Source: an uncultured Acidimicrobiaceae bacterium (GTDB lineage: Bacteria; Actinomycetota; Acidimicrobiia; Acidimicrobiales; CAYSAC01). Taken from it: a DNA stretch of 64,000 nucleotides. The notes under the pieces are model-generated. The model ran no database searches. It was not told the origin of the DNA and was given only the letters and a program-made list of their open reading frames with translations. This document shows positions 1-55,278 of this stretch, piece after piece. Position 1 is the first letter of the stretch. Each line of letters begins with the position of its first letter. The position numbers were made by a program, and so were the translations under genes. The stretch is from contig CAYSAC010000002.1 in NCBI GenBank assembly GCA_964428815.1, positions 5,062-69,061 of the forward strand, read 5' to 3'.

Positions 1-53
1 AAGCGTCACCGGTCGAGGAGCCTAGGAGACTGCTGAAGAGTTGACGACGACCA

Positions 54-1157
54 TCAAACCAGGGCCGCCTCCTCGTCGATCACGTGCGCGAGTCGTCGGA
101 CGAACACGTCCTCTGAGTACTGCTGGGCGTGAGCGAGGATCCGACGATCCTCAAATCGCATCGAGGACAGGCGGCGGATCGCATCCATCACATCAGCAGG
201 CTCTGCCCTGGAGAAGTGTACGCCCGTCTCGCCGTCGATCACGGTGTCCACGAAGCCCCCCGCGCGCAACGCGACGGTCGGCTTCCCGAAGGCGGCGCCC
301 TCGACGGGCGTCAGCCCGAAGGGCTCGACGGCGGCGCTGATCACGGCACGACAGCTCGCATACAGCCATCGGAGCCGCGCGTCGTCGCAGCTCCCGAGGA
401 GGTGGACGTTCGGCCCTGCGTGCGCCCGGAGGCGGTCCAGCTGCGGACCATCGCCTGCCACGACGAGCCGCTCGCCAGGCAGATCTGCGAACGCGTCGAC
501 GAGCACGTCCACGTTCTTGTAGGGCAACAGCCGCGATGCGCAGAGGAAGAAGCCTTCATCCAGACCGTCGATCGGCTGGCGCGGGGCGTCCCCATCGAGC
601 GTGTTGGGGGGCGGGATGATCTCGGCCTCGATCCCATGGATCTCGGCCAAACGACGTTGCATCACAGTTCCCTGCGTGATGAAGCGGTGGCCTGTTGCCA
701 CCGTTCGCTGGTCCCATCTCTTCAGCAGTGGAGCAACGCTGTAGGCGGCCGCCCGGCGTCCGACGCTGGCGCCCTTGAGGTACGCATCCCTCTCATAGAG
801 CCAGCGCGCGAGCGAGTGGAAGTAGAGGACCTTGCGCCCGGTGACGCGAACGCCCTGTGCCCACCCACTCGTTCCACAGACCACTACATCCGCATCCACG
901 CGCAGGCCTGACGCGATCAGAGGCATCACCGGCAGTGTCGCGCGGTGGTGACGCCGGATGGCACCGACGCGGTTGAGCGGTGATGCCCGCACGTAGATCG
1001 CACGAAACTCCGGGTAGCAGGCTGCCGGCTCGTAGAACGGTGTCACTACCTCAGCGTCAGGCGCGGCCTTGAGCATCGAGAGCAGGCAGCGTTCGGCGCC
1101 TCCCCGCTGCACGAGGTGATCCTGTACGAAGGCAACCTGCGGACGGCTGCTCGTCAC
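54..1157 (-). CDS. GT4-family (GT-B fold) glycosyltransferase
   Basis: 367-aa ORF with a C-terminal GT4 signature (FLCASRLLPYKNVDVLVDAF ... EPFGLTPVEGAAFGKPTVALRAGGFVDTVIDGETG). Strong GC3 bias. Confidence 0.85.
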   Translation of the reverse strand: MTSSRPQVAFVQDHLVQRGGAERCLLSMLKAAPDAEVVTPFYEPAACYPEFRAIYVRASPLNRVGAIRRHHRATLPVMPLIASGLRVDADVVVCGTSGWAQGVRVTGRKVLYFHSLARWLYERDAYLKGASVGRRAAAYSVAPLLKRWDQRTVATGHRFITQGTVMQRRLAEIHGIEAEIIPPPNTLDGDAPRQPIDGLDEGFFLCASRLLPYKNVDVLVDAFADLPGERLVVAGDGPQLDRLRAHAGPNVHLLGSCDDARLRWLYASCRAVISAAVEPFGLTPVEGAAFGKPTVALRAGGFVDTVIDGETGVHFSRAEPADVMDAIRRLSSMRFEDRRILAHAQQYSEDVFVRRLAHVIDEEAALV

Positions 1158-1211
1158 GCGATCATTGTGACCGCTCCGTGCGCGCGGGCTGTCTGAGGTC
1201 CCCGAAGGGCT

Positions 1212-2051
1212 TCAGCCCTCGGCGACCTGGTAGGCCAGCTCGCCTGCGAGGTCTGCGCTCGGCAGCTCGATGATCGTGGCCGAGCGGGCGGCGAGGTCGG
1301 GCAGCGGCAGCGCGACCGGGACCGTGCGGATGGCCCACTCAGGCACGTCCTCCAGGCGAACGGTCCGTCCGCCCCAGAGCACCTTGCGCGCGGTCTGGAG
1401 GAGGATCCAGACGTCGAGCTTCAGGCCGTAGTGGCGGATGTAGAAGGTGTCGTACTCAGGCGCTTCGCAAATGAGGCGGACGCAGTGCTCGCTGACCTGC
1501 CAGAGCCCGGTGCAACCGGGGCGGGCGAAGGTGCGAACGCTGGCGAACCTTGGCTCGAGCAGGGCGTGCAGGCCCGGCATCTCCGGGCGGGGCCCGACGA
1601 GGCTCATCGTGCCGGCGACGACCAGGGCGAGCTGCGGCAGCTCGTCGAGGTGGAGCCGGCGGAGGATCGAGGTGAACGCCGGGACCTCGACGTCGCTCAG
1701 CTGGTACTTGTCCGCGTACGCGGGCGTGTCCGTGGGAAGCGTTCGGACCTTGACGAACCGGAAGATCCGGCCATCCTGGCCGACCCGGTCCTGCACGAAG
1801 AACGGCCAGGCATGGAGCGATATGGCGCTGCCGAGCGCCGCGATGAGGATGATGGGCAGGGTCAGCAGCAGGAGCAGGGCGCCCGCAACGATGTCGAACC
1901 CCCGCTTGATCACGTCGCGCCGGCCTCCCTCGATGTCCGTCGCACCGTTCCCAGACCTGCCGAGGATAGCCACGTAGTCCTCCGTCCGCCTCACCCCGTC
2001 TCTATTCGTCGCGGGGTGGTCCGCTTCCTTCCCACGGTGACCATTGATCAC
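1212..2051 (-). CDS. Polyprenyl-phosphate sugar-phosphate transferase (bacterial sugar transferase, WbaP/WcaJ C-terminal or PglC-like); probable priming enzyme
   Basis: One hydrophobic re-entrant helix (FDIVAGALLLLLTLPIILIAAL), then RFVKVRTL, LDELPQL, MSLVGPRPE and GCTGLWQVS. The true start may lie inside the ORF. Confidence 0.85.
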   Translation of the reverse strand: MINGHRGKEADHPATNRDGVRRTEDYVAILGRSGNGATDIEGGRRDVIKRGFDIVAGALLLLLTLPIILIAALGSAISLHAWPFFVQDRVGQDGRIFRFVKVRTLPTDTPAYADKYQLSDVEVPAFTSILRRLHLDELPQLALVVAGTMSLVGPRPEMPGLHALLEPRFASVRTFARPGCTGLWQVSEHCVRLICEAPEYDTFYIRHYGLKLDVWILLQTARKVLWGGRTVRLEDVPEWAIRTVPVALPLPDLAARSATIIELPSADLAGELAYQVAEG

Positions 2052-2108
2052 CGAGAGTGAAACGTCCCCGCGTGTCCCAACTTGCGGGGAGATTCGCAGG
2101 TCGATCCG

Positions 2109-3221
2109 TCAGATCAATGCGTCGAAGACCGCCGCGGTCCGCTCGACGAGGTCTTCCGGCCTGTAGGTGGCCAGCGCATGCTCCCGCCCAGCCCGTGCGA
2201 GGTTGAGCGCGAGCTCGTCGTCGCCGAGGACGCGACGAATGGCCGCTGCCAGGCCGGTCGCGTCCCCGACGTCCACGAGAAGCCCGGTGCGGCCGTCGTC
2301 GAGGATGTCGGTGGGCCCGGCCGTGCGCGTCGCGATCACGGGCAGGCCCGCCGCCATGGCTTCGACGAGCGCGATCCCGAACGGTTCGTTGATGGACGGG
2401 AGCACGTACAGCGCGGCACCGTCCCAGTGCTCCCACGGGCGAGGTTGGTGGCCGCAGAACCGGACGACGCGAGCGAGACCGAGATCCTCGACCATCCCCC
2501 CGAGTGCGGAGGCGTGCTCCTCGTGGCCCCGCTGCGGCGCGCCGTATATCTCGACCACGAGCTCTGGGACATCGCCGACGACCTGTGCGATCGCCTCGAG
2601 GAACACGTCGTAGCCCTTCACCGGGTGAAGGCGCGCGGCAGCGACGACTCGCGGCGGGTCCGCCGGCGTGCGACGCGCCACCAGTCGCGGGAGCTCACGC
2701 GGCGTGACGGGGATGCGGACGTGGCGCACACCGCCGAGTTCCGCGGCCACGCCGCGAGAAGCGACGATGGCGGTCCTCGCGGACCGGTGACCGAACGCGT
2801 TGATCGTGCGCGATCTGCCTGGCGTATGGATGTGCCAGACCCACGGCACCTTCGCGAGAACTGCGGCGGGGCCCCCCAATACGACACCCCGCTGGTCTAT
2901 GACGTCGAGGAGCGCCGCTCCGCGCGCACGGAGGTGGCGTGCGAAGGACAGCCACCACGGCACCAGAGATGCAGCCGCGGCGACGAGGTCGATCGGCCCG
3001 AAGCGCCCGCCGTAGCGGAGCAGGCCGCGGCCGACGGGCAGCACAGTCACGTCGATGCCGCGCACGCGGTAGTCATCGAGGACAGGTCCGTCCATGGGTG
3101 CGACGATCTCGGTGGTCCACCCACGCGTGGTCAGGCGCTCCGCGAGCATTCCCGTCGTGACCTGCGCGCCGCCCGGGGCGTGCGGGTAGACCTCGAGCAG
3201 CACGAGGTGACGGGTGGGCAT
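2109..3221 (-). CDS. GT4-family glycosyltransferase
   Basis: Track ORF 2109..3617 trimmed to the ATG at 3221 (MPTRHLVLLEVYPHAPGGAQ). The upstream 132 codons overlap the 3' end of the next gene and are Arg/Gly-rich. GT4 motif EPFGIALVEAMAAGLPVIATRTAGPTDILDDGRTG. Confidence 0.85.
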   Translation of the reverse strand: MPTRHLVLLEVYPHAPGGAQVTTGMLAERLTTRGWTTEIVAPMDGPVLDDYRVRGIDVTVLPVGRGLLRYGGRFGPIDLVAAAASLVPWWLSFARHLRARGAALLDVIDQRGVVLGGPAAVLAKVPWVWHIHTPGRSRTINAFGHRSARTAIVASRGVAAELGGVRHVRIPVTPRELPRLVARRTPADPPRVVAAARLHPVKGYDVFLEAIAQVVGDVPELVVEIYGAPQRGHEEHASALGGMVEDLGLARVVRFCGHQPRPWEHWDGAALYVLPSINEPFGIALVEAMAAGLPVIATRTAGPTDILDDGRTGLLVDVGDATGLAAAIRRVLGDDELALNLARAGREHALATYRPEDLVERTAAVFDALI

Positions 3222-3274
3222 CCGGGCGATCGTACCGACCTCGGCGCCAGCGCCCGTTACGCCGATCGGCGCGG

Positions 3275-4804
3275 CTACGCGCGGCGCGCCGACCACGCAG
3301 TGATCGGTTCGGTCCTTGGTTCGCTCGCTCCCGTCGCCCCGACAATGCCGACGTTGAGCGCGAGGCCGGCGCCACCCCAGAAGATGAGCGAGGTGGGCAG
3401 GTCGGTCCACACCTGCAGGAACATCCCGGCTGCAATCAAGCCGAAGCCCGCGATGCGCAGGCCCGAAGCGAGTGGGACGTCGTCGGCGGTCTCGCCCCGC
3501 GCCGCCTTGCCAAGCCGCCGGACCGTCGCGAAGAGGAGCGCGATGAACATGACCATCGGGATCACACCCATCTCGTCGCCCACCAGTAGGTAGGAGTTCT
3601 CCGGGTTGGCGTCCCACTTGTAGTCCTGGGGCACGGATGGCCCGGCACCGAGACCGAGCCCGAGGGGATTGGCGACCATGGTGTCGACGCCATCCCAGAA
3701 CCGGTCGAGGTGTGCATCTGACGACAGATCGGTTCCCTCGGCAGCCGCCGTCGTGCGCGCGCCGAGCGCACCACCTGCGAGCCCCGGCGTGGCGAGAGCG
3801 ATCGCGCCGAGGAGGATCAAACCGAGACGGGCGCGATGCTCGCCGATGCGGCCGACGCCCGGACGCAGTGCTGCCAGCGCGGTAACGATGACCGCGATCA
3901 CTGCGGAGCGGGTGAGCGTCAAGGTGGCGCCGGTGGCCGCGAGGACCGCTGCGAGCGTGGCGAGGCGGGCGGGTCGCCTGCGGTTGATCGACTCCAAGGC
4001 GAGCCCGAACGGGACGATGAAGAAGAAGCAGATGCGGATCGGATCGAAGGCCACGGAGCCGGCGCGCGTGATCACGCGCCCGCCGACCGTCTCGGTCGCT
4101 CGGATGTCGAACGGCCGGGGGAGGGAGAAGCCCGTGGTCAGCACGTTGAAGCGGTTCAGCTGCAGCGTCTTGGTTGCGAAGGTGTTCCAGCCCGACGAGT
4201 TGAAGAACTCATACAGCGTCTGGAACCCGACGATCACGACGGCGACGAGCACCGCTCGCACGAACCAGCGCCGCGCCTGCTCGCGCGTCGGGATGTGCCG
4301 GGCGGCGAGGAAGAGCACGAACATCGAGACGTGCATCCGGAAGCTGATGAGGCGAACGTCCCACGAGCGAATGTCGCCGGTCGCGAGGAGCGACGGGATG
4401 AGCAGGTACGCAGTGCACACCGCGATGTACGCGATTGCGAGACGGTCGATGCCGTCGAATCGATGGTGCTGCTCGAGCGCGTGGTGCAGTGCGGCGACGG
4501 CGAGCGCCACGAGCAGCACCTCGTTCCACGAGCCGGCGCCGTTGACGAGCGGGAGCGGCATCCCGAGCCAAAAGAGGATCGGGAAGAGGATCCGGTCGAA
4601 GACGATGAGCCCGGCCAGCAGCGCGAGGGCGCGGTCCGGTGCCTTGAGTACGAGGACCACCAGCCCTGCGCCGAGGATCGTGGCGATCGGCCGTTGGAGA
4701 TCCGTGGGGTAGCGGCGCAGCACCGCGTAGACGAGGACCGGCAGCAGCCAAAGCGTGTCCGCAATCGTGATGCGCCAACGCTCGACCGAAGACGTCAGCC
4801 GCAT
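3275..4804 (-). CDS. O-antigen ligase / Wzy-polymerase-like polytopic membrane protein
   Basis: Track ORF 3275..5026 trimmed to the ATG at 4804 (MRLTSSVERWRITIADTLWLLPVLVY). At least 10 hydrophobic segments. Wzy_C/O-antigen-ligase-like loop followed by PENSYLLVGDEMGVIPMVMFIALLF. Confidence 0.7.
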   Translation of the reverse strand: MRLTSSVERWRITIADTLWLLPVLVYAVLRRYPTDLQRPIATILGAGLVVLVLKAPDRALALLAGLIVFDRILFPILFWLGMPLPLVNGAGSWNEVLLVALAVAALHHALEQHHRFDGIDRLAIAYIAVCTAYLLIPSLLATGDIRSWDVRLISFRMHVSMFVLFLAARHIPTREQARRWFVRAVLVAVVIVGFQTLYEFFNSSGWNTFATKTLQLNRFNVLTTGFSLPRPFDIRATETVGGRVITRAGSVAFDPIRICFFFIVPFGLALESINRRRPARLATLAAVLAATGATLTLTRSAVIAVIVTALAALRPGVGRIGEHRARLGLILLGAIALATPGLAGGALGARTTAAAEGTDLSSDAHLDRFWDGVDTMVANPLGLGLGAGPSVPQDYKWDANPENSYLLVGDEMGVIPMVMFIALLFATVRRLGKAARGETADDVPLASGLRIAGFGLIAAGMFLQVWTDLPTSLIFWGGAGLALNVGIVGATGASEPRTEPITAWSARRA

Positions 4805-4919: not shown

Positions 4920-6002
4920 GTGCCTCTGCCGGACTGCCTGCGCACGCGGCGGCTCGCCGCGTGCGGGGCGGGCGTGGCCACCACGCTCGCGTACTGGTTG
5001 GCGCTCCCAGCAGGCGGGGCGGACACCGACCAGGTCGCCTATGTACGGATGCTCGAGCGCATGCGCGCGGGTCAGGGGTACTACGAGGCGCACCGCGATG
5101 CCTTCGCCGAGCAGCTGATCCTCGTGAGCCAGTCACGGTCGATCCGCATGCCGGTCGTGTTCCTGTTCTGGGCGCGCTTCCCGCCTGGTGCCTGGTTCGG
5201 GCTCTTCTGCGTGTGCGTCGTGGTGGGAGCGACCGTCGTGTTGACCCGGCTGACGAACCGTCCGCTTGCGGCGTTGCCCGTGACGCTCTACCTGCTGTTC
5301 GCGGGGAGGACCATCGACCACTGGGGTGACACGCCCGTCGACGCCTTCTTGCTCCCGGAGGTCTGGGTCGTCCCGTTCGTCGCCGGGTCCTTGGTCGCGT
5401 GGCGACGGCAGCGGTGGTGGCTGGCGGTGCTGTTGGCTGTCGGCGCCGTGCTGCTGCGCGAGCTGGCGGTTCTCTTGCTCCTCGGCGGGCTGCTCTCAGC
5501 CCACATCGAGCGCAAGCCACGGGCGCCGTGGCTCGCGGGGCTCGGTGTGGCCGCCGTGGCGTACGGCCTCCACTACGCGCTTGCTGCCGACTACCTCTCG
5601 CCGGTCGGCAACGAGGCCCCGTTGCTCGGCACGGCCCGGATCCCGTGGTCGATGCTGGCGATGATGGACAACGCCGTGCCCGGTCCGCTCGTGTTCGGTG
5701 GCGTGCTGTGGGCGATCGCGCTGTGGAAGCTCTGGCTACGGCGCGAGCTGCTCTTCTTCGGTCCGTACTTGTCCTTGCCCCTCACGGGTCTCATCGTCGA
5801 CCGGCCCTACTGGGGTCTGATGTTCGTGAGCTTCACGCTGTTCTGGACCGCCGAAGCGCTGCTCGAGGGGGCGACGTGGTTGCGGGTGAACCGGCGCGTG
5901 CCGCAAGCCGACGATCTCCGCCAGCTCCTGGCTCGACAGCCACTACAAGCGAGCTTGCGATCGGGACGTCAGCCCGACCCGGTGTCGTCGCCCGGCACGT
6001 AG
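4920..6002 (+). CDS. Polytopic integral membrane protein of unknown function
   Basis: 360-aa ORF with about 8 hydrophobic helices (e.g. WFGLFCVCVVVGATVVL, WWLAVLLAVGAVLLRELAVLLLLGGLL) and no recognisable catalytic motif. Divergent from the Wzy-like gene. Its 3' end overlaps the kinase gene convergently by 34 nt. Start uncertain. Confidence 0.5.
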   Translation: MPLPDCLRTRRLAACGAGVATTLAYWLALPAGGADTDQVAYVRMLERMRAGQGYYEAHRDAFAEQLILVSQSRSIRMPVVFLFWARFPPGAWFGLFCVCVVVGATVVLTRLTNRPLAALPVTLYLLFAGRTIDHWGDTPVDAFLLPEVWVVPFVAGSLVAWRRQRWWLAVLLAVGAVLLRELAVLLLLGGLLSAHIERKPRAPWLAGLGVAAVAYGLHYALAADYLSPVGNEAPLLGTARIPWSMLAMMDNAVPGPLVFGGVLWAIALWKLWLRRELLFFGPYLSLPLTGLIVDRPYWGLMFVSFTLFWTAEALLEGATWLRVNRRVPQADDLRQLLARQPLQASLRSGRQPDPVSSPGT

Positions 6003-6727
6003 GCGCTGCTGACGTCGTTGTAGCCGTACCCCTCGCCGTAGCCGAAACGGATGCCGACGTCGCGCTGCTGGAGCTTGTTCACCACGAGCCCGAGCAGGCG
6101 GGTCTGGTTGCGGGTGAGCGCGTCCTTTGCCTGTCGCAGCGCGTCGATGGGCGTCCGCCTCGCCTCCACGACCAAGACCGCGCCGGCGACCATCCGACCG
6201 ATCACGAGGGTGTCGGCGACGGGAAGGACCGGTGGGGTGTCGAGGAGCACGATGTCGGCCTGGGCGGCCAGGGAATCCAGCAGCCGTGCCATCCGGTGCG
6301 TGGCGAGGAGCTCGGTGGGACTCGCGACCCCTTCGCCCGTCGCAAGGAAGTACAACCCACGTGGCGTCTGCGAGGGACCCGGGCCGAGCTGCACGAACTG
6401 GAGGCAGTCCTCGAGCGGACGGCGCTCGAGCAACACGTCGGAGACTCCATACTCGTTGCGAGCGCCCAGCTGGCGATGGGCGTCGGGGTGGCGCAGATCG
6501 ACGTCGACGAGGACCGTGCGTTGACCCGCGAGCGCCATCGCCTGTGCCAGGTTCACGCAGGTGGTGGTCTTCCCCTCGCCCGGCGACGCGCTGGTGATGA
6601 TGACGATCGGCCGCTCCAGATCGCTCAGAGCGACGGCGAGGTTCGACCGCAGCACCCGGAACGCCTCGTCGGTCTGCACGATCGCGCTCCGGCGTGGCGT
6701 CGCCGAGAAGCGGCGGCGCCTAGGCAC
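5969..6727 (-). CDS. BY-kinase (CpsD/CapB-type protein-tyrosine kinase, cytoplasmic ATPase part)
   Basis: Walker A SASPGEGKTTTCVNLA, Walker A' VLVDVDLRHP, Walker B DIVLLDTPPV, and a C-terminal Tyr cluster GYGEGYGYNDVSSAY. The GTG start at 6727 overlaps the Wzz-like stop (GTGCCTAG). Confidence 0.85.
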   Translation of the reverse strand: MPRRRRFSATPRRSAIVQTDEAFRVLRSNLAVALSDLERPIVIITSASPGEGKTTTCVNLAQAMALAGQRTVLVDVDLRHPDAHRQLGARNEYGVSDVLLERRPLEDCLQFVQLGPGPSQTPRGLYFLATGEGVASPTELLATHRMARLLDSLAAQADIVLLDTPPVLPVADTLVIGRMVAGAVLVVEARRTPIDALRQAKDALTRNQTRLLGLVVNKLQQRDVGIRFGYGEGYGYNDVSSAYVPGDDTGSG

Positions 6728-9642: not shown

Positions 9643-9643
9643 G

Positions 9644-13880: not shown

Positions 13881-13881
13881 C

Positions 13882-47339: not shown

Positions 47340-47345
47340 GTCGAG

Positions 47346-48614: not shown

Positions 48615-48616
48615 GG

Positions 48617-49489
48617 CTAGCGGATCGTCAGCCAGAAGCCGGTCCCGTTCGTCGGGACCGCAGCCCAGGTGAACCGGTCCCACAACGGAGCCAGGATCCG
48701 GTGCAGCTCGGGCTCGGTCGAGATCCAGAAGTTGGGCAGCGTTATCTCGAGCCGTTCGCCCGCGAGCAACCAGGCCGCGAGCAGGTACTGCTCGGAGTAC
48801 CACCGGTCATTGAGCTGCGGGGGGTAGTCCCATGGCAGGAAGATGTCGTCGATGTACACGAGGAGCCCGCTCGGCAAGCGCGGGAGGATCTCGGTGAAGA
48901 AGACCGTCACGTCGCTGTTCGTGAGCACGCGGTGCGACCCGTCGAGCATGAGGATGTCGCCCGGCCCGAGCGCGTCGAACAGCGCGCCGTCCGCATCCTC
49001 CATCGGCTGACGGATGTGGACGTCGCTGAGCCCGTCGAGCGCGGCGCGCGGCGTCGGATCGATGGACACGATCCGCGTGGGCAGGCGGTGGCGCTCGATG
49101 GCGTGGCGAGCGAAGCGCGTCGAGTGGCCGGCGCCGACCTCGAGGTAGGTCGCCGGCCGCCGTTCGACGAGCGCGCCGTAGAGCGACGCGGCGTCGAGCC
49201 CTTGGAAGTAGCTGTTCACCCAGCGAGGGGCCTGACCCTCCGCGTCGAACGCGATCTCTGCGAGCTCGTCGACCAGCTCGAGGAGCGAGCTCAGCGTCTT
49301 CTCGTACCTGGACCGTCCTGCCTCGATGAGCAGCGCCAGCTCCGGGTGCGGAGGTCGCCCGTAGCCCCACCTTGCCTCGGGCCGTACCGGGTAGTCGAGC
49401 GTGATCGTCTGCGCCGTGGTCTGGTCCGACTGGTCTGACCGAGCGGCACGACGGAGCTCGCTCGCGATGGCACGAAGACGCGAGAGCAC
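48617..49489 (-). CDS. Class I SAM methyltransferase-like protein (Methyltransf_24-like)
   Basis: Only the last 290 codons of the 674-aa track ORF are kept. The rest is Arg-rich and antisense to a good GT2 gene. YLEVGAGHSTRFARHAI, IVSIDPTP, ILMLDGSHRVLTNSDV. The GTG start at 49489 is the first start candidate I could identify from the translation; the codons of upstream Val/Leu residues were not checked and the start is uncertain. Confidence 0.65.
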   Translation of the reverse strand: MLSRLRAIASELRRAARSDQSDQTTAQTITLDYPVRPEARWGYGRPPHPELALLIEAGRSRYEKTLSSLLELVDELAEIAFDAEGQAPRWVNSYFQGLDAASLYGALVERRPATYLEVGAGHSTRFARHAIERHRLPTRIVSIDPTPRAALDGLSDVHIRQPMEDADGALFDALGPGDILMLDGSHRVLTNSDVTVFFTEILPRLPSGLLVYIDDIFLPWDYPPQLNDRWYSEQYLLAAWLLAGERLEITLPNFWISTEPELHRILAPLWDRFTWAAVPTNGTGFWLTIR

Positions 49490-49663
49490 GCAACGATCAT
49501 CGCGCCCAGCGCCTGCCGTCGCGCCACGTCGCGCCGCGACGGCCGCTCGTGCTGCTCGAACCCGACTGCAGCGCGGCTGCGGTCGGCGCGCGGCGCCGGC
49601 TTGTGGAGCGCCAGATCTGTCGTGGTGATCTCCACGGCCCCGACCGATTGGCGTTCTTGGGCC

Positions 49664-50620
49664 ATGCCTCCTGCGGGAGTTGGTACATTGGCCGCTCTGG
49701 GACGGCCACAGCTCTCCGTAGTGGTCGCGACGCGGGACCGCCCGGTGCTGCTCGAGGGATGTCTCGCTTCGCTGCGCGCTGCACTCGGACCCGCGGACGA
49801 ATTGATCGTCGTCGACTCGGCGTCTCGCGAGGCAGCGGCCATGCGCCAGGTCATCGCGGCGCATGGTGCGCGCTATGTGCGCTGCGACGAACCAGGAGCG
49901 AGCCGCGCCCGCAACACCGGCTGGCGCGCCGCCTCGAACGACATCGTGGCCTTCATCGACGACGACGCCCGTGTGCTCCCAGGGTGGGCGGACGCGGCGC
50001 GCGCTGCCCTCGCGGATGCGAACGAGGTGAGCTTCATAACGGGTCGCATCGGCCACCCGGACCCCGTCGAGCGTGCCGAACGTCCGGTCGCCATCTTCGA
50101 TCACACGACGACGTTTCCCATCGTGAACGAGACGGTGGAGCCGTTCGGCCATGGCGCGAACCACGCCGTGCGGCGCAGCGCGCTCGACCACGTCGGCGGA
50201 TTCGACGAGCGGCTCGGAGCAGGAGGCGAGTTCCCGGCCGCAGAGGACCTCGACCTCTGGGACCGTCTGGTGCTCGCGGGGTACGTCGGCCGCTACGTGC
50301 CCGAGATGGCGGGCTGGCACGAGCAGTGGCGCGACCGACGCGACAACCTCGGCCTCGATTGGGCGTACGGCTATGGCGGCGGTGTCCGCTTGGCCAAGCT
50401 CTTGCGTTCGGATCGCGGTCGAGCGGCGCGCTCGGCGCGAGTGATATTCGGAAGCTGGGGTGTCGTGTTGACCATCGCGCAGCTCCGCCAGCGACACCGT
50501 TACCTCGCGATGCTCAACGTCATCCGGATGTGCGGCGCGGTCGCGGGCGTCGCACGCGGCATCCTTGTGCCGATCAGAGGTGGGCATCTCGCGCCGCGGC
50601 GAGGTCGTCCTGCCCGATGA
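49664..50620 (+). CDS. GT2-family glycosyltransferase
   Basis: LSVVVATRDRPVLLEGCLASL, LIVVDSASRE, VAFIDDDARV. ATG at 49664 (MPPAGVG). The track model starts at 49601. Confidence 0.75.
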   Translation: MPPAGVGTLAALGRPQLSVVVATRDRPVLLEGCLASLRAALGPADELIVVDSASREAAAMRQVIAAHGARYVRCDEPGASRARNTGWRAASNDIVAFIDDDARVLPGWADAARAALADANEVSFITGRIGHPDPVERAERPVAIFDHTTTFPIVNETVEPFGHGANHAVRRSALDHVGGFDERLGAGGEFPAAEDLDLWDRLVLAGYVGRYVPEMAGWHEQWRDRRDNLGLDWAYGYGGGVRLAKLLRSDRGRAARSARVIFGSWGVVLTIAQLRQRHRYLAMLNVIRMCGAVAGVARGILVPIRGGHLAPRRGRPAR

Positions 50621-50732: not shown

Positions 50733-52505
50733 ATGAGCTTGGTACGCGCGCGTCATCGACGGACCCGACGCCTGATCTTGGGCGCCCTCGTCGGAGCGCT
50801 CACCGTCGTCACAGTGGTTCCGGCCGACGCGGGGCTCCTGCCGCCGATCCTCGGCGGTGGCCAGCCCGCCCCGGCGGCCGGGCCGCTCCCGTTGGCCGGG
50901 TTCTGGGCCGCTGCCGCCCCCGGCGACGAGGCCATCGAGATGGGCTGGCAGTACGCGGCCGGCGGCCCGCGGGCGGAAGCGGTGCGGATCCTGCTCTTCG
51001 AAGTCCGCGAAGACGGCACGCAGGTCGAGGTCAACTCGGCGCTGGTCCGGCGCGGTCTGCTCCCGGACACGTACCGCGTCGCGGTGGAAGCAGGTCGGTG
51101 GCGGGTCAGTGCCGCCCCGGAGAGCGCTTCGGCCGGAGGCGCGCGATCGTTCAGTCCGATCATCACCGTCGCGAGCAGGTGCTCCGGTGCCGCCATCTGC
51201 GCGGAGGTCGGCACGCAGCTGGCGCCGAAGGTATCCCTCGTCGGGCAGGGGCTCCTGCTCGGTCTCGTCGACGACCAGGGCCGAGTCCCCTCTCCGTCGC
51301 TCGTCGCGCCGCTCCGGGTGAAGCAGTGGCGCTTCGCCTTCCGCGACGCCGATGCAGTGGCGCGCACCTACCAGGTGTCCCGCACGCAGGTCCTCTCGGA
51401 GCTGTGGACCGACGCGACTGCCCCGTCGAACGGGGGTTACGCCCGCACGCCGTGGTCCGACTGGAACCGGTTCGGGAGCTTCGTCGTCTCGGTGGTCAGC
51501 AAGGCCAAGGCCGAAGGCTGGTCACCGGACTACTGGGACATCTGGAACGAGCCGAACGGCACGTGCTGCCCCAAGTTCTCGCCTCGAGACCAGCGGACGA
51601 TGACGGTGGACCGCTGGCTGTGGACCTACGACGCCGCGTACCGCGCCATCAAGTCGGTCGATCCGAACGCGAAGATCATCGGACCGAGTACGAGCGTGCT
51701 GCGCTGGGTCCCGGACGCGAGCCTCCCCGAGTTCGACCTGGACACCTTCCTACGGTTCTCTGCCGGTCGCGGCCTGGTGTGGGACGCGATCTCGTGGCAC
51801 GAGATCGGCGGCTTCGAGCTCGAGTCCGACGTCACCAACACGATCCTGAACATCGATCGGCACGTGGCACTGGCGAAGGCGCTGATGGCGAAGTATCCCG
51901 GCACGGTCGTCGGGAACCGCGTCTTCATCAACGAGTACACCCACGCCCGGACACACCTGCTCGCCGGCTGGGCCGTCGGCTGGTTCCGAGCCTTCGAGGA
52001 CAGCGGGGTGGCCCAAGCGAACCGGGCCTGCTTCAGCTCCTACGAGTGCGAGAGCACGGTCCTCAACGGGCTGCTCACGGCAGCGAACGAGCCCACGGCG
52101 GCGTGGTGGGTGCACCGCCTGTACGCCGACCTCGCTGACGCACCCCGGGTCCCGGTGACGTCGAGCTCCTCGTGGCAGCTCGACGGCCTGGCATCGCGCG
52201 ACGACGCGTCCCGCACGGTGCGGGCGCTCCTCGGTCGGCACTGGTCATGCAACCCGGGCGCGAACGCGTGGTGCAAGGAGTACCTCGGTATCAGGCCGGC
52301 CTCCGTGCAGGTGTCGATTGCGTGGCCGTACGGCAACCAGCCGGTGACGGTGACCACCAGCCTTCTTCCGGCGGGAACGGCGGCGCTGACCGCTCCCTAC
52401 TCATCGACGCAGACGCTCTATCCCGCCGCCGGCAAGATAGTCGTCGCTGTCCCCTCACTGAGTGACGGCTCGGCCATCTCGCTCGTGGCCCGCCCGGCCG
52501 GCTGA
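50733..52505 (+). CDS. Secreted clan-GH-A-like glycoside hydrolase (GH39/GH5-like), possible Tat signal
   Basis: N-terminal HRRTRRLILGALVGALTVVTVVPADAG. Candidate acid/base DIWNEPNG (Glu codon 51549-51551) and candidate nucleophile VFINEYTH (Glu codon 51933-51935). Confidence 0.65.
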   Translation: MSLVRARHRRTRRLILGALVGALTVVTVVPADAGLLPPILGGGQPAPAAGPLPLAGFWAAAAPGDEAIEMGWQYAAGGPRAEAVRILLFEVREDGTQVEVNSALVRRGLLPDTYRVAVEAGRWRVSAAPESASAGGARSFSPIITVASRCSGAAICAEVGTQLAPKVSLVGQGLLLGLVDDQGRVPSPSLVAPLRVKQWRFAFRDADAVARTYQVSRTQVLSELWTDATAPSNGGYARTPWSDWNRFGSFVVSVVSKAKAEGWSPDYWDIWNEPNGTCCPKFSPRDQRTMTVDRWLWTYDAAYRAIKSVDPNAKIIGPSTSVLRWVPDASLPEFDLDTFLRFSAGRGLVWDAISWHEIGGFELESDVTNTILNIDRHVALAKALMAKYPGTVVGNRVFINEYTHARTHLLAGWAVGWFRAFEDSGVAQANRACFSSYECESTVLNGLLTAANEPTAAWWVHRLYADLADAPRVPVTSSSSWQLDGLASRDDASRTVRALLGRHWSCNPGANAWCKEYLGIRPASVQVSIAWPYGNQPVTVTTSLLPAGTAALTAPYSSTQTLYPAAGKIVVAVPSLSDGSAISLVARPAG

Positions 52506-52655
52506 GCGAGCGGCTTGCCTGCTTAGGTCCCAGCGGGGTGCGTCCGCGCCGACCGAAGCCCCGCGGGCGGCTCCGCTACCCTCGCTCGGAGTGGACGGGT
52601 CGCAGCACGACGACGCCCTCGCCGACTTCACAAGCGACGAGGGCTAGGCAGCGGA

Positions 52656-54560
52656 GTGCTGCGTCGGTCGCGCGCCTCTGAGCGCCCGAGACATCGATGG
52701 CTGCTCGCGCTGGTCGTGCTCGCGGCTGCGTTCGGCGGGCTGGTGGCGCTCGGAGCGTTGCGCGTCGCGCGGATCGCGTCGCATCTCCGCGTTGCGCAAG
52801 ATGACATCGAGGCGGCGTCGTCGGCCCTTGAGGCCGGTGAGCTGCGGCAGTCGCGCGAGCACCTCGACGCTGCATTGGCGACCCTCACCGTCGCCAACGG
52901 CGAGCTGCACAACTCGGTCGAGCTCCAGCTCGTGAGCGGCCTGCCAGTCGTGTCACAGAACATCGACTCGGTGCAGGACAGCGTCAGGCTCAGCATGTCG
53001 CTGGTGACGGGCGGCCGTGAGGTCATCCTTGCTGCCGCACAGCTCGAAGGCGCCGACGGCAAGCTGGAAGTCCCGCTCGCGAGCGGCGCGCTGCCGCTCG
53101 CCGCCGTCGTGGGCACCCAGCGCGAGCTCGCCTTGCTCGGAGCGCTCCTCCCGGGCCCGAGCGAGAAGCCTGGAGGCAAGCTCCTCGTCGGACCGGTGCG
53201 CGAGCTGCGCGACCGCATCTACAACACGGTCGCGTCACGCCGCGAGCAGGTCGACTCCCTGTCGAGGGCGCTGCGCGTCGTGGGGGATCTGGCAGGTGCC
53301 GAGGGTCCCCGTCGCTACCTGATAGCGGTGGCGAACACCGCCGAGATGCGTGGGACCGGCGGGATGATCCTCAGCTACGGCGAGCTGCTGTCCAAGGACG
53401 GTGACTTCGAGCTCGGCGCCTTCGGGCGAATCGATGAGCTTCAGCTCGACGCCCCATTGCCGCCAGAGTCGGTGTCCTTGCCTGAGGACTATCTCCGGCG
53501 GTGGTCAGGTTTCGATGTCACGCTCCGGTGGCGCAACGCGACGATGGCGGCGGATCTCCCTCTGATCGCACCGAACCTGCTCGAGATGTACCAGGCGGCG
53601 ACCGGGGTTCCTGCGGATGGCGTGATCCAGATCGATCCGCACGGCTTGGCGGCAGTGCTCGAGGGGATCGGCCCGGTCCAGGTCCCAGGACTCGGACAGG
53701 TGACCGCGGAGACCGTCGTCCCCTTCACGCTGAACGAGGCCTATGTCAGGTTCCCGGGTATCGACGAGCGCAGTGATGTTCTCGGCGACATCGCCGAAGC
53801 CGTGTTCACAAAGCTCGTCGAGGGCCGGTACCCGAGCCTGAGGCCCCTGGGAGAAGCCCTCGTCAAGACGGCACGGAGCGGCCACATCCTGGCCTTCGCC
53901 AGCAACGGCGGGACCCAAGGCGACTTCCGCTGGTTCGGCGTCGATGGCGGGCTCCCCCAGACCTCGGCGCTCTTCCACCTGACCGCCCAGAACCTGTCGG
54001 GGAACAAGCTGGACTACTTCGTCGAGCCCGCCCTCGCGCTGCGGGGATCGCTGCTCCCTGGTGCGATCGGCACCCTCACCGCAGAGATCACCTTGCACAA
54101 CGACGCCCCTGTTGGCCAGGACGAGCCCGCGTACATCTTCGGCCCGTTCTCAGCGAACGTTGGTCGGCAGGTCGCAGGCCAGTACCGAAGCGTCGTGAGC
54201 CTGTACGTGCCGAGCGGTACGGATCTCGCAGGCTTCTCTGGTGAGGTCGTCTCCGAACCGGTGGTGCTCACGGAGGGGGGTCGCACGGTCGTCAGCTACA
54301 CCGTCGACGTCTTCGCAGGAACGGCACCCGCCGTCAGCCTGTTCCTCACCATGGCACCCCGTCCGGCTGGACCGTTCGACGTGTACCTCTCGCCCTCGCC
54401 CCGCGTTCACCCGACGGCGGTCACCGTCGACCTCGACATCGGTGAGGGGAGGGTCGAGGGCGATGTCCTACTCGACCGGACCTGGAGGTTCGCGGCGGGC
54501 GAACGGCCCGCAGCCATCAGGCCACGTGACGTCCCTCGGGACCTCGACGGCGAGCGCTGA
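52656..54560 (+). CDS. DUF4012-like membrane-anchored protein
   Basis: N-terminal TM WLLALVVLAAAFGGLVALGAL, a helical region, then PRRYLIAVANTAEMRGTGGMILSYGEL. From memory this is the hallmark of DUF4012 proteins found in actinobacterial envelope-glycan loci. Confidence 0.7.
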   Translation: MLRRSRASERPRHRWLLALVVLAAAFGGLVALGALRVARIASHLRVAQDDIEAASSALEAGELRQSREHLDAALATLTVANGELHNSVELQLVSGLPVVSQNIDSVQDSVRLSMSLVTGGREVILAAAQLEGADGKLEVPLASGALPLAAVVGTQRELALLGALLPGPSEKPGGKLLVGPVRELRDRIYNTVASRREQVDSLSRALRVVGDLAGAEGPRRYLIAVANTAEMRGTGGMILSYGELLSKDGDFELGAFGRIDELQLDAPLPPESVSLPEDYLRRWSGFDVTLRWRNATMAADLPLIAPNLLEMYQAATGVPADGVIQIDPHGLAAVLEGIGPVQVPGLGQVTAETVVPFTLNEAYVRFPGIDERSDVLGDIAEAVFTKLVEGRYPSLRPLGEALVKTARSGHILAFASNGGTQGDFRWFGVDGGLPQTSALFHLTAQNLSGNKLDYFVEPALALRGSLLPGAIGTLTAEITLHNDAPVGQDEPAYIFGPFSANVGRQVAGQYRSVVSLYVPSGTDLAGFSGEVVSEPVVLTEGGRTVVSYTVDVFAGTAPAVSLFLTMAPRPAGPFDVYLSPSPRVHPTAVTVDLDIGEGRVEGDVLLDRTWRFAAGERPAAIRPRDVPRDLDGER

Positions 54561-54669
54561 ACCTGCTGCGAGCAGGAGGTTCGCCCCATCTGGTCGAACC
54601 TCAAGTCGAGACCCGGCGCTGACGATGACACGTATCGTCGGCCGATTGAACCCGACGCAGGCAGGACCG

Positions 54670-55278
54670 ATGGGTACCAACCGGACAGCTACCAGGGCGT
54701 TCGTCCTCACCTTCGCGGTCTGCGCCCTGATGCTCTCGATCGCTCCTGTCGCATCGGCCGGACAGGCGCCCCCCTACGGCTCGACGACGACGACGGCCGG
54801 CGAGAGCTTCAACACCGCGTGCGAGCTGAGCCCGCAGAGCGGCACGCCTGGCACGCAGGTCACCGCAACCGTGACCGGCGCCGCCGTCGGTGATCAGATC
54901 CGCATCCTCTTCAACGGTCGAGAGGTCGGCCGCGGCGCGGCCGAACGCGGCTCCGGCTCGAGCGGCACGGCCGTCATCCCGTTCACCGTTCCGGCGACCG
55001 AGGACGCCACCTACACCATTGTCGCCGTCGGCGCGACCTTCACTGAGCCCTGCGGGAGCGAGACCGGCGGGTTCCTTGTCGAGGGTGCGACTGTGGAGCG
55101 AGGCTCAGGCTCCGGGCGCGGACTGCTGCCCCGGACGGGCATCGAGCTTGCGCTCTGGTTGGCCCTCGCAGTGGCGCTGCTGCTCGCCGGCCGGGTCATC
55201 GCCGGTGCCGCGAAGGAGCGGCGCCGTCGGGCTCACCGGTCCGCACTGAGCCGCAACCGGTCCCGCACCACCGTCTGA
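54670..55278 (+). CDS. LPXTG-type sortase-anchored surface protein
   Basis: Signal peptide MGTNRTATRAFVLTFAVCALMLSIAPVASA. C-terminal LPRTG (55126-55140), hydrophobic helix IELALWLALAVALLLAG and basic tail KERRRRAHR. An ATG at 54625 is an alternative start. Confidence 0.7.
   Translation: MGTNRTATRAFVLTFAVCALMLSIAPVASAGQAPPYGSTTTTAGESFNTACELSPQSGTPGTQVTATVTGAAVGDQIRILFNGREVGRGAAERGSGSSGTAVIPFTVPATEDATYTIVAVGATFTEPCGSETGGFLVEGATVERGSGSGRGLLPRTGIELALWLALAVALLLAGRVIAGAAKERRRRAHRSALSRNRSRTTV

What the first reader, a model, noticed from the sequence alone, without database searches (positions are those of the whole stretch)
1..55278. More than 55 kb of uninterrupted glycan-assembly genes ending abruptly at purF
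**Seen.**
- From the first base to 55,278 every credible ORF (52 of them) is a glycan assembly, export or decoration function, or an envelope protein.
- The count is one priming transferase, 9 GT4, 6 GT2 domains, 12-13 methyltransferase domains, 4 sulfotransferases, 3 sulfatase-fold proteins and two export systems.
- At 55,334 the content switches to purF/purM.
- I saw no integrase, transposase, tRNA or direct repeat at that border.
- Inside the island I saw no transcription factor, Wzx-type flippase, LCP (LytR-CpsA-Psr) ligase or PAPS/nucleotide-sugar supply genes beyond the RfbF-like and SDR pair.
- The left border lies outside the window.

**Inference.** The size and diversity suggest either more than one glycan or one very elaborately decorated polymer. 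The island looks resident rather than recently mobilised.
Basis: partly seen in the sequence, partly recalled or inferred. Interest (0 to 1): 0.6.

Follow-up and report, generated by a model that had tools for sequence, protein, structure and literature searches.

The report
Patchwork surface-sugar locus splitting purine operon
The 55 kb stretch really is wall-to-wall genes for building, decorating and exporting cell-surface sugar polymers, and relatives show it is a long-standing but highly variable locus between two purine genes (purL and purF), here stitched together from at least two separately distributed modules plus sulfation and acylation add-ons.

Summary
Observation confirmed.

New points:
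- The left border lies only about 0.4 kb outside the window, at a GtrA gene coupled to an SDR. The locus is about 55.7 kb.
- A fifth sulfotransferase (36,446-37,420) is frameshifted.
- The last gene encodes an LPXTG sortase substrate.
- The site is conserved. purL-purF-purM is contiguous in 14 of 29 order-level relatives. DUF4012-LPXTG-purF is conserved in 7-8 closer metagenome contigs. Four relatives carry 31-41 kb (or more) glycan loci at the purL|purF junction.
- The content is mosaic. Genes 1-15 match one relative (55-86% identity). Genes 19-49 match an ABC-only locus in another (45-84%). ST-sulfatase-ST and the acyl-carrier/tailoring cassette have no counterpart in these relatives.
- Island GC3 is below the genome median in 51 of 53 genes.

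So the site is resident and not an integrase-type island, but the locus is a composite and probably makes at least two glycans. It is a new variant of the cps/O-antigen-type variable locus, notable for predicted sulfation in Acidimicrobiales. Earlier notes of this scan on the same stretch exist; none was found on other DNA.

The parts
1..9 (-). First codons of a GtrA-like membrane protein. The whole gene is contig C2:4651-5070, i.e. 410 bases left of the window. It is the leftmost island gene. Its stop lies 2 bp from the start of the flanking SDR (C2:3905-4648).
   Evidence: PF04138, 41 bits. The junction is spanned by Logan contig L195. The same SDR-GtrA pair lies next to purL in ENA contig_52036.
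54..4804 (-). GT4 (54-1112), priming polyprenyl-phosphate sugar-phosphate transferase Bac_transf (1212-1973), GT4 (2109-3296), and an 11-TM Wzy_C protein (3275-4804) that is either a polymerase or a ligase.
   Evidence: Orthologues at 36-65% identity, mostly in the same order, in ENA contig_46109.
4920..6002 (+). Polytopic membrane protein of a very small family (7 homologues found). It gives a weak match to the AZOBR_p60025 'cell surface glycopolymer formation' family.
   Evidence: It has a 58% orthologue between Wzy_C and the BY-kinase in ENA contig_46109.
5969..7481 (-). Split BY-kinase pair: ATPase (5969-6679) and Wzz-like transmembrane modulator (6720-7481).
   Evidence: AAA_31 42 bits; the Wzz match of 20 bits is below the Pfam cut-off. 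Orthologues at 86% and 72% in ENA contig_46109, and at 62-65% and 45% in G002:C510.
7652..15716 (.). GT4 (7652-8866 +), methyltransferase (8863-9642 -), three GT4 (9644-10837, 10834-11946, 11943-13043, all -), glucose-1-P cytidylyltransferase-like NTP-transferase (13176-13880 +), and two GT2 (13975-14757, 14754-15716, both +).
   Evidence: All but the methyltransferase are collinear with ENA contig_46109 at 57-78% identity.
15790..19026 (.). Sulfation trio: sulfotransferase (15790-16719 +), canonical sulfatase (16757-18139 -), sulfotransferase (18196-19026 -). It sits at the seam between the two main modules.
   Evidence: No counterpart in any of the five comparator loci.
19063..26241 (.). Core of the ABC-transporter module: GT4 (19063-20223 +), FkbM methyltransferase (20196-20996 -), GT4 (20993-22081 -), methyltransferase (22406-23101 +), Wzt with C-terminal carbohydrate-binding domain (23115-24335 -), Wzm (24332-25099 -), GT2 (25330-26241 +).
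   Evidence: The best solved relatives of Wzt are PDB 8dku/7k2t, E 6e-66 over residues 9-360. Orthologues at 64-76% in ENA contig_52036 and 54-55% in G019.
26281..32778 (.). Acyl/tailoring cassette: hexapeptide acyltransferase (26281-26907 -), AMP-ligase (26937-28505 -), acyl-CoA dehydrogenase (28502-29662 -), ACP (29805-30044 +), O-methyltransferase (30041-31057 +), 2OG-Fe(II) oxygenase (31094-31900 +), and an MT-like unknown (31993-32778 +).
   Evidence: The cassette lies between genes 25 and 33, whose orthologues are adjacent in G019. ACAD-ACP-ligase trios at 40-51% identity lie in other glycan loci, G009:C55 and G015:C25.
32843..36416 (+). GT2-methyltransferase fusion (32843-34453), a candidate chain-capping enzyme. 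Then a methyltransferase (34588-35361). Then a sulfatase-fold protein with Thr in the nucleophile position, motif SWTAPSHY (35529-36416).
   Evidence: The GT2-MT family has more than 829 members. The Thr-variant family has more than 587 loci at 58-73% identity across many phyla.
36446..37420 (-). Fifth sulfotransferase, read in three different frames. It is a pseudogene unless the frameshifts are assembly errors.
   Evidence: PF13469 match with 2 in-frame TGA. Three-frame translation. Frame change relative to the ENA contig_52036 orthologue.
37461..50620 (.). Decoration-rich right part of the ABC module:
- second Thr-variant sulfatase-fold protein (37461-38939 -)
- methyltransferases (38966-39769 +, 39779-40576 -, 41909-42655 -, 44714-45859 +, 45856-46677 +, 48617-49489 -)
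- sulfotransferases (40642-41946 +, 46674-47339 +)
- 4,6-dehydratase-like SDR (42648-43619 -)
- GT2 (43683-44696 +, 49688-50620 +)
- GT4 (47346-48614 -)
   Evidence: Orthologues are scattered over ENA contig_52036, G019 and GCA_016850195.1.
50778..55278 (+). Right-hand frame: membrane-anchored GH39-like protein (50778-52505), DUF4012 protein (52656-54560), and a small surface protein with signal peptide, LPRTG, TM segment and a basic tail (54670-55278).
   Evidence: DUF4012, then the LPXTG protein, then purF is conserved in L166, L168, L169, L170, L182 and L188. L179 has DUF4012 followed by purF without a detected LPXTG-protein match. L177 is partial: DUF4012 and the LPXTG-protein match only.
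55334..57860 (+). Flank: purF (55334-56824) and purM (56826-57860). These are housekeeping genes with GC3 of 0.91-0.93.

Best explanation
This is the chromosome's main cell-envelope glycopolymer locus in an uncultured, roughly 70% G+C monoderm actinobacterium. The nearest named MAGs are Acidimicrobiales. The locus occupies a conserved slot that splits the ancestral purL-purF-purM operon.

**Site and frame (shown).** In this lineage the slot is flanked on the right by DUF4012, an LPXTG protein and purF. On the left it is flanked by SDR-GtrA, which lies next to purL in a relative.

**Cargo (shown).** The cargo between the frame genes differs from genome to genome, as in cps or O-antigen loci. 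The version here, about 55.7 kb, is the union of four kinds of piece:
- (a) A Wzy_C/BY-kinase module: priming transferase, GT4s, Wzy_C, Wzz plus kinase, NTP-transferase, GT2s (genes 1-15).
- (b) An ABC-transporter module: Wzm/Wzt with a carbohydrate-binding domain, a GT2-methyltransferase fusion, many methyltransferases, and Thr-variant sulfatase-fold enzymes (genes 19-50).
- (c) Two nested add-ons: an ST-sulfatase-ST trio at the seam, and an ACP/AMP-ligase/ACAD/acyltransferase plus O-MT/2OG cassette.
- (d) The DUF4012/GH39-like/LPXTG frame.

**Mechanism (inferred).**
1. Glycans are built on polyprenyl phosphate at the cytoplasmic face.
2. They are O-methylated with SAM, sulfated with PAPS (APS kinase is encoded in trans) and acylated before export.
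3. One polymer is capped, probably by the GT2-MT fusion, and exported by Wzm/Wzt, whose C-terminal domain reads the cap.
4. A second polymer is polymerised outside the membrane by Wzy_C under Wzz/BY-kinase control, using a flippase encoded elsewhere.
5. LCP ligases encoded elsewhere attach the products to the wall.
For: **Content.** Pfam and NCBIfam assignments for all 53 genes. Wzt resembles solved O-antigen ABC transporters over residues 9-360 of 406, reaching into the region where Pfam places Wzt_C (residues 267-362).

**Site.**
- purL ends no more than about 1.5 kb upstream of purF in 14 of 29 order-level relatives.
- DUF4012, then the LPXTG protein, then purF (purF 81-84% identical) occurs in L166, L168, L169, L170, L182 and L188. 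L179 has DUF4012 and then purF at 70%. L177 is partial.
- purL | 31 kb glycan locus | purF in GCA_016850195.1.
- purL | 40.6 kb ABC-type locus | purF in G019.
- purL | SDR-GtrA ... ABC-type locus, about 31 kb | purF-purM-RR-ParA-PRT in ENA contig_52036.
- purS-purQ-purL | GtrA ... Wzy-type block in ENA contig_46109.

**Modularity.**
- Genes 1-15 are 55-86% identical and collinear only with contig_46109.
- Genes 19-49 are 45-84% identical only with the ABC-only contig_52036.
- Genes 9, 16-18, 26-32, 42, 47 and 51 have no counterpart in any comparator.

**Exchange.**
- Wzt, Wzm, g25 and g44 are closer to the distant G019 (54-56%) than to the closer GCA_016850195.1 (38-48%). PGT, g48 and g19 show the reverse.
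- Flank genes are 70-74% identical to G019 and 83-88% to GCA_016850195.1.
- GC3 of the island is 0.858, against a genome median of 0.906. It is lowest (0.833) in genes 22-40.

**Functions in trans.** APS kinase, FGE, Wzx and two LCP ligases.

**Junctions.** Both are confirmed in Logan contigs.
Against: - No glycan chemistry, expression data or read-level data are available.
- purL was not found in this 73%-complete assembly. The left neighbour here is SDR/GGDEF-EAL, so placement 'between purL and purF' is inferred from relatives.
- Comparators are single contigs from different families or unbinned metagenomes. Two of them are error-prone long-read contigs with split genes.
- The island has no Wzx, and the Wzz match is below the Pfam cut-off. 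The second (Wzy) line may therefore be incomplete or something else.
- Lower GC3 could reflect low expression rather than foreign origin.
- Two glycans cannot be told from one by sequence alone.
Confidence: 0.7

Rival explanations
1. There is one pathway and one polymer. All glycosyltransferases build a single, heavily decorated ABC-exported glycan. The Wzy_C protein is not a polymerase but a WaaL/WsaB-type ligase that transfers the exported chain to a lipid, the wall or a surface protein, possibly the adjacent LPXTG protein. The BY-kinase pair only regulates.
For: - No Wzx-type flippase lies in the island. The only one found is on contig C40.
- The 31 kb locus of GCA_016850195.1 also combines Wzm/Wzt, Wzy_C and a fused Wzz-BY-kinase without any Wzx.
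- Pfam PF04932 covers ligases as well as polymerases.
- There is only one priming transferase in the island.
- From general knowledge: the S-layer glycan cluster of Geobacillus stearothermophilus has this logic (Wzm/Wzt, a methyltransferase-GT fusion WsaE, the priming enzyme WsaP, and the Wzy_C-type transferase WsaB).
Against: - The Wzy/BY-kinase half and the ABC half occur apart in relatives.
- Fifteen GT domains are more than a single repeat unit usually needs.
- BY-kinases are typical of Wzy-dependent systems.
- No solved relative was found that could classify the Wzy_C protein.
Confidence: 0.18
2. Part of the centre (26.3-36.4 kb) makes or tailors a small acylated or aromatic molecule or a glycolipid (natural-product style) rather than decorating a polysaccharide. 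On this reading the stretch is not purely glycan assembly.
For: - A free-standing AMP-ligase, ACP, acyl-CoA dehydrogenase, family-2 O-methyltransferase and 2OG oxygenase are typical tailoring enzymes.
- The cassette has no counterpart in the five comparator loci.
Against: - The same ACAD-ACP-ligase trio (40-51% identity) sits inside other glycan loci of the order, with BY-kinase and sulfotransferases.
- There are no NRPS or PKS condensation or ketosynthase genes.
- The cassette is embedded between a GT2 and the GT2-MT fusion, which are neighbours in G019.
- From general knowledge: the Vibrio cholerae O1 rfb region uses an ACP, a ligase and an acyltransferase to N-acylate perosamine in an ABC-exported O-antigen.
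Confidence: 0.08
3. The stretch is a recently acquired mobile genomic island, or an assembly chimera joining unrelated DNA at purF.
For: - GC3 is lower than in the rest of the genome.
- Two order-level relatives have SDR directly beside purF without any island.
- The genome is a fragmented MAG of 697 contigs.
Against: - There is no integrase, transposase, tRNA or border repeat.
- Both junctions are reproduced in Logan contigs with 0 mismatches.
- The right junction is conserved in 7-8 independent metagenome contigs, and the left SDR-GtrA pair in one.
- A decayed sulfotransferase suggests long residence.
Confidence: 0.04

Closest known systems
Variable capsule / O-antigen loci at fixed chromosomal sites (S. 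pneumoniae cps between dexB and aliA; E. coli/Salmonella rfb between galF and gnd near his). Comparison from general knowledge.
   Same: - Conserved flanking and frame genes with hypervariable cargo in between.
- Cargo G+C below the genome average.
- Mosaic gene content shared patchily between lineages.
- No mobility genes needed.
   Different: - The slot here splits a purine operon (purL|purF).
- The locus is very large (56 kb), transcribed in at least 22 strand blocks rather than one operon, and combines two assembly routes.
- The frame genes (DUF4012, LPXTG protein, SDR-GtrA) are different.
ABC-transporter-dependent O-polysaccharide pathway with a cap-reading Wzt (E. coli O9a WbdD/Wzt; Aquifex aeolicus WzmWzt). 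The best PDB matches are 8dku/7k2t; the organism names come from memory.
   Same: - Wzm plus Wzt with a C-terminal Wzt_C domain.
- A methyltransferase-containing candidate chain terminator (GT2-MT fusion).
- A polyprenyl-phosphate priming enzyme.
   Different: - The host is monoderm, so the acceptor is not lipid A-core.
- There is no kinase domain in the candidate terminator.
- Capping and cap recognition are untested.
- The locus carries 12 methyltransferases and 4-5 sulfotransferases.
Sulfated exopolysaccharide clusters: synechan xss of Synechocystis (PMC8205485) and the proposed wps-1 of Actinoplanes missouriensis (PMC13390465)
   Same: - Sulfotransferases of PF13469/PF00685 type embedded among GTs.
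- A priming transferase, Wzy and a Wzz-type co-polymerase.
- wps-1 also has a methyltransferase and a glycoside hydrolase.
   Different: - xss and wps-1 are Wzx/Wzy-only, with 2 sulfotransferases and about 11-19 genes.
- This locus has no Wzx, has an ABC exporter, more sulfotransferases, a canonical sulfatase, and no regulator inside.
- Sulfation is unproven here, as it still is for wps-1.
S-layer glycan (slg) cluster of Geobacillus stearothermophilus NRS 2004/3a (from general knowledge)
   Same: Gram-positive host, with Wzm/Wzt, a methyltransferase-glycosyltransferase fusion, a Bac_transf priming enzyme and a Wzy_C-family transferase in one locus.
   Different: - No S-layer gene is seen.
- A BY-kinase, DUF4012, sulfation and acylation genes are present.
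- There are no rml genes in this version, although GCA_016850195.1 has them.

Membership tests
ABC-transporter-dependent glycan export (Wzm/Wzt) | ABC-2 permease plus an ATPase whose C-terminal extension is a carbohydrate-binding (Wzt_C) domain | tested here: met
   PF01061 at 55.6 bits. PF00005 at 73.5 bits plus PF14524 at 45.3 bits, against a cut-off of 30.4. PDB 8dku/7k2t at E 6e-66, covering residues 9-360.
ABC-transporter-dependent glycan export (Wzm/Wzt) | A chain-terminating enzyme that caps the non-reducing end | tested here: inconclusive
   The GT2-methyltransferase fusion at 32,843-34,453 is a candidate. It is conserved next to Wzm/Wzt in many loci. Activity was not tested.
Wzx/Wzy-dependent pathway with BY-kinase | Priming transferase, Wzy polymerase, PCP (Wzz) and BY-kinase ATPase | tested here: inconclusive
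   Bac_transf at 141.8 bits, Wzy_C at 35.2 bits (cut-off 31.7) and AAA_31 at 42 bits are met. Wzz reaches only 20.3 bits, against a cut-off of 25.5. The equivalent gene in relatives is a fused Wzz-kinase with PF02706. Polymerase and ligase cannot be distinguished.
Wzx/Wzy-dependent pathway with BY-kinase | A Wzx (MOP-family) flippase in the locus | tested here: not met
   None among the 53 products. The single PF01943 match in the genome is on contig C40.
Mobile genomic island / integrative element | Integrase or transposase, tRNA or other att site, flanking direct repeats | tested here: not met
   No such domains, no tRNA, and no shared border repeat of 12 nt or more.
Hypervariable glycan locus at a conserved chromosomal site (cps / O-antigen type) | Same flanking genes in related genomes with different cargo between them | tested here: met
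   Right flank: DUF4012-LPXTG-purF in 7-8 contigs. purL is on the left in four relatives, and SDR-GtrA in one. Cargo differs in every case.
Hypervariable glycan locus at a conserved chromosomal site (cps / O-antigen type) | Cargo compositionally distinct and phylogenetically incongruent with the flanks | tested here: met
   GC3 is below the reference median in 51 of 53 genes, Mann-Whitney p 1.6e-12. Identity pattern is incongruent between G019 and GCA_016850195.1. No formal tree reconciliation was done.
Sulfated polysaccharide biosynthesis cluster (xss / wps-1 type) | PAPS-dependent sulfotransferases inside a glycan locus, with PAPS supply in the genome | tested here: met
   Four intact sulfotransferases and one broken. 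APS kinase on contig C532 at 224.7 bits.
Sulfated polysaccharide biosynthesis cluster (xss / wps-1 type) | Sulfate esters demonstrated on the product | not testable with these tools
   Uncultured organism; no chemistry is available.

The most novel reading that the evidence does not exclude
The purL|purF slot is a serotype-like diversity locus of soil Acidimicrobiales. Its cargo modules are traded across Actinomycetota and beyond. The modules include a widespread, still uncharacterised ABC-exported, methyl-rich glycan kit built around a GT2-MT fusion and a 60-75%-conserved Thr-variant sulfatase-fold enzyme. In this genome the product is a sulfated, methylated and acylated wall glycopolymer. 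Taken together with sulfotransferases in 26 of 41 sampled families of the order, often clustered in glycan loci, this would make sulfated glycans a common trait of a major soil actinobacterial order rather than a cyanobacterial speciality.
Probability: 0.35. Interest if true: 0.65.

Novelty: new variant of a known kind. Interest (0 to 1): 0.45.

Why it matters
- **Surface variation in an uncultured group.** Acidimicrobiales are abundant in soil and almost uncultured, and nothing is known about their surface polymers. This locus and its relatives define where their envelope glycan genes sit (a slot inside the purine operon). They show the content is swapped in modules, which points to strong diversifying pressure (phage, predators, desiccation) on the surface.
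- **Sulfated glycans outside cyanobacteria.** The literature still treats bacterial sulfated polysaccharides as essentially cyanobacterial (PMC8205485), with an actinomycete case only proposed in 2026 (PMC13390465). Finding 4-5 sulfotransferases plus PAPS supply here is a direct pointer. So is finding sulfotransferases in 26 of 41 sampled families of the order, in several genomes clustered with glycosyltransferase, BY-kinase or DUF4012 genes. Both suggest where to look for new sulfated polymers.
- **Practical use.** The conserved purL/purF flanks give a simple handle for extracting and typing this locus from metagenomes.

Tried and rejected
**Searches that found nothing or could not run**
- The search for related loci with the single DUF4012 protein found nothing in genome contigs or metagenome contigs. 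Alignment-based queries worked.
- The genome search on metagenome loci as handles: the records are not held.
- Exact-product look-ups failed for purF, gene 35, the priming transferase and the broken sulfotransferase piece. The frameshifts could therefore not be checked in an independent assembly.
No read-level or RNA evidence could be obtained.

**Uninformative tests**
- No att-like sequence at the borders.
- Excess strand switching as a sign of piecemeal assembly: 0.40 against 0.30 per junction, p = 0.08, not significant.
- Promoter/terminator consensus scan and Rfam.
- PDB search could not classify the Wzy_C protein.
- Sixty kb upstream of purF in six order-level relatives holds no island genes. 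This first suggested a unique insertion. Closer metagenomic relatives then showed the slot is conserved, so the simple 'insertion into an SDR|purF junction' model was replaced by the purL|purF slot model.
- The model 'cargo inserted between Wzz and DUF4012' (from G002:C510) was weakened. ENA contig_46109 shares the G000 order Wzz-GT4-...-GT2.

Full report
**What is in the window.** The window is G000:C2:5062-69061 of a 4.34 Mb MAG in 697 contigs, 73% complete and about 70% G+C. High G+C fills all six frames with long ORFs. I therefore trained a codon-usage caller on the genome's own long ORFs. It gives 62 genes, 53 of them before 55,278.

- one Bac_transf priming transferase
- nine GT4
- six GT2, one fused to a methyltransferase
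- twelve methyltransferase domains
- four sulfotransferases
- three sulfatase-fold proteins
- a Wzy_C protein with a split Wzz/BY-kinase pair
- Wzm/Wzt, whose ATPase carries the Wzt_C domain. Wzt matches solved O-antigen ABC transporters over residues 9-360 of 406, reaching into that domain (E 6e-66).

purF and purM follow at 55,334. There is no tRNA, no Rfam RNA, and no integrase, transposase or regulator domain.

- Genes 36 and 37 are not unknowns. Together (36,446-37,420, minus strand) they are a fifth sulfotransferase read in three frames. This is a pseudogene unless the frameshifts are assembly errors.
- Gene 53 has a signal peptide, an LPRTG motif, a membrane segment and a basic tail. 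It is a sortase substrate, which fits a monoderm envelope.
- Gene 5 is a polytopic membrane protein of a tiny family with 7 homologues.
- Seven genes (26,281-32,778) form an acyl-carrier/AMP-ligase/acyl-CoA-dehydrogenase/acyltransferase plus O-methyltransferase/2OG-oxygenase cassette.

**Borders.** The contig extends 5,061 bases to the left of the window. It holds a GtrA-like gene whose stop is 2 bp from the start of an SDR gene. Then come a GGDEF-EAL protein and a Na/Pi-type membrane protein. The locus therefore runs from C2:4651 to 60,339, about 55.7 kb.

Independent Logan contigs of run SRR6868923 span both junctions without a mismatch. One covers window 40,345-55,389, across gene 53 into purF. 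The other covers C2:3885-4890, across SDR|GtrA. No repeat of 12 nt or more is shared by the borders.

**The site is conserved.** All 40 relatives offered by the genome library belong to other families of the same order.
- purF-purM is near-universal among them. purL ends within about 1.5 kb upstream of purF in 14 of 29 loci examined. purL-purF-purM is therefore the ancestral arrangement.
- Six of these genomes have no island genes within 40-60 kb upstream of purF.
- Two (G040, G023) have the orthologue of the left-flank SDR (61% and 57% identity) divergent from and directly beside purF.
- A profile search of metagenome contigs with the DUF4012 protein found closer relatives, with purF 81-84% identical. 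In L166, L168, L169, L170, L182 and L188 the order is DUF4012, the LPXTG protein, then purF, and wherever the contig continues downstream it runs on through purM and PRT as in the window. L179 has DUF4012 followed by purF at 70% without a detected LPXTG-protein match. L177 ends after the LPXTG-protein match.
- Walking along one of these relatives (GCA_016850195.1, which is the same as JGI Ga0370518_00001) shows purL, a 31 kb glycan locus, DUF4012, the LPXTG protein, then purF.
- G019 has purL, a 40.6 kb ABC-type glycan locus, then purF.
- ENA contig_52036 has purL, then SDR (71% identical to the window's flank SDR), GtrA, a roughly 31 kb ABC-type locus, then purF-purM-RR-ParA-PRT.
- ENA contig_46109 has purS-purQ-purL followed directly by GtrA and a Wzy-type block.

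The slot immediately upstream of purF is thus a long-standing home of envelope-glycan genes in this lineage. purL itself was not found in this incomplete assembly. Its position here is inferred.

**The content is modular and mosaic.** Table:
- Genes 1-15 (GT4, priming transferase, Wzy_C, gene 5, BY-kinase 86%, Wzz 72%, GT4s, NTP-transferase 78%, GT2s) have orthologues at mostly 55-86% identity in contig_46109, collinear from Wzy_C onward, and nowhere else at that level.
- Genes 19-24, 33-37, 39-40, 45-46 and 49 have 45-84% orthologues in contig_52036. That locus has no Wzy_C, BY-kinase, DUF4012, sulfatase or acyl cassette.
- BY-kinase/Wzz sits directly beside DUF4012 in G002:C510, L174, L176 and L185.
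- Genes 9, 16-18, 26-32, 42, 47 and 51 have no counterpart in the five comparator loci. Genes 16-18 are the ST-sulfatase-ST trio, lying at the seam between the two blocks. Genes 26-32 are the acyl/tailoring cassette, lying between two genes that are neighbours in G019.
- ACAD-ACP-ligase trios at 40-51% identity do occur in other glycan loci of the order.

Identities are incongruent with the flanks. Wzt, Wzm, g25 and g44 are 54-56% identical to the distant G019 (purF 70%) but 38-48% to the closer GCA_016850195.1 (purF 84%). The priming transferase, g48 and g19 show the reverse pattern.

GC3 is below the genome median in 51 of 53 island genes. The island mean is 0.858 against a median of 0.906 (p 1.6e-12). 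It is lowest (0.833) in genes 22-40. That matches the 66-69% G+C of the contig_52036 locus.

This is one chromosomal locus but not one evolutionary or, probably, functional unit.

**Wider distribution.**
- Sulfotransferases (PF13469) occur in 26 of 41 sampled families of the order, with up to nine in 31 kb. In several genomes they cluster with GT, BY-kinase or DUF4012 genes.
- The GT2-methyltransferase fusion has more than 829 relatives. Named sources are Acidimicrobiales, Solirubrobacteraceae and Actinomycetota.
- The Thr-variant sulfatase-fold protein (motif SWTAPSHY) has more than 587 loci at 58-73% identity. These span Actinomycetota, Binatia, Acidobacteriota, Chloroflexota and others. In actinobacterial and Chloroflexi loci it sits with Wzm/Wzt and the same methyltransferases and GTs in shuffled order.

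**How it most likely works.**

Shown:
- the gene content
- the conserved site
- the modular distribution
- the presence of PAPS supply, a flippase and LCP ligases in trans

Inferred:
- One polymer is assembled on polyprenyl phosphate in the cytoplasm. It is methylated, sulfated and perhaps acylated there, capped by the GT2-MT fusion, and exported by Wzm/Wzt, whose C-terminal domain recognises the cap.
- A second polymer is made from repeat units polymerised by Wzy_C under Wzz/BY-kinase control.
- DUF4012, the GH39-like protein and the LPXTG protein act outside the membrane.
- LCP enzymes attach the products to the wall.

The main rival is a single ABC-exported polymer with Wzy_C acting as a WaaL/WsaB-type ligase. 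It is supported by the absence of Wzx both here and in GCA_016850195.1. It cannot be excluded (about 0.18).

A recent mobile island or an assembly chimera is very unlikely. At least 22 strand blocks imply many transcription units, but the excess over the genome background is not significant.

**Comparison and verdict.** In kind, this is a variable glycan locus at a fixed chromosomal site, like cps or O-antigen loci. What is unusual:
- the slot, which splits purL from purF
- the size
- the union of two assembly routes
- the density of methyl, sulfate and acyl decoration

The literature held here treats sulfated bacterial polysaccharides as essentially cyanobacterial (PMC8205485). An actinomycete case was only proposed in 2026 (PMC13390465). 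I rate the finding a new variant of a known kind, interest 0.45. No look-alike on other DNA was reported.

Noticed in passing
window 35529-36416 (+) and 37461-38939 (-): The small sulfatase-fold protein has Thr in place of the formylglycine Cys (motif SWTAPSHY). It belongs to a very strongly conserved family: more than 587 loci at 58-73% identity across Actinomycetota, Binatia, Acidobacteriota, Chloroflexota, Nitrospirota, Planctomycetota and others. In 14 of the 80 loci kept, mainly actinobacterial and Chloroflexi ones, Wzt lies within 10 kb. Its N-terminus aligns weakly to nucleotide pyrophosphatase/phosphodiesterases. It is therefore probably a phospho-transferase or phosphodiesterase rather than a sulfatase.
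   Followed up: partly
window 36446-37420 (-): A fifth sulfotransferase is broken by two to three frame changes. The orthologue in ENA contig_52036 is also split into two called ORFs. That contig has many split genes, so the split there may be sequencing error.
   Followed up: partly
contig C2:1424-3736 (-), about 1.3-3.6 kb left of the window: A membrane-bound GGDEF-EAL (c-di-GMP) protein lies two genes from the island edge. A 40% homologue lies between purL and purF in G040. It could link the locus to c-di-GMP control.
   Followed up: no
window 57877-58287 (+) and 58297-59357 (-): A stand-alone receiver-domain response regulator follows purM directly. Next come a small unknown gene and a ParA-like ATPase. 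This arrangement is conserved in ENA contig_52036 and partly in the JGI relatives.
   Followed up: no
G000 contigs C161, C211, C40, C49: The genome has further, smaller glycan loci: two more Wzm/Wzt pairs (one with its own priming transferase), a Wzx with three GT4, and an LCP ligase next to GT4s and an SDR.
   Followed up: partly
G010:C5:1.633-1.664 Mb and 2.846-2.868 Mb; G003:C11:7.9-36 kb: Order-level relatives carry loci with seven to nine sulfotransferase genes within 20-30 kb. Those in G010 and G003 lie among GT2/GT4 genes. This is far more than in this window.
   Followed up: partly
G000:C675:579-1583 and G002:C510:3-122: Both G000 and G002 have a second purF-like sequence on another contig, at 51% and 65% identity respectively. 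This may be a paralogue, strain mixture or contamination.
   Followed up: no
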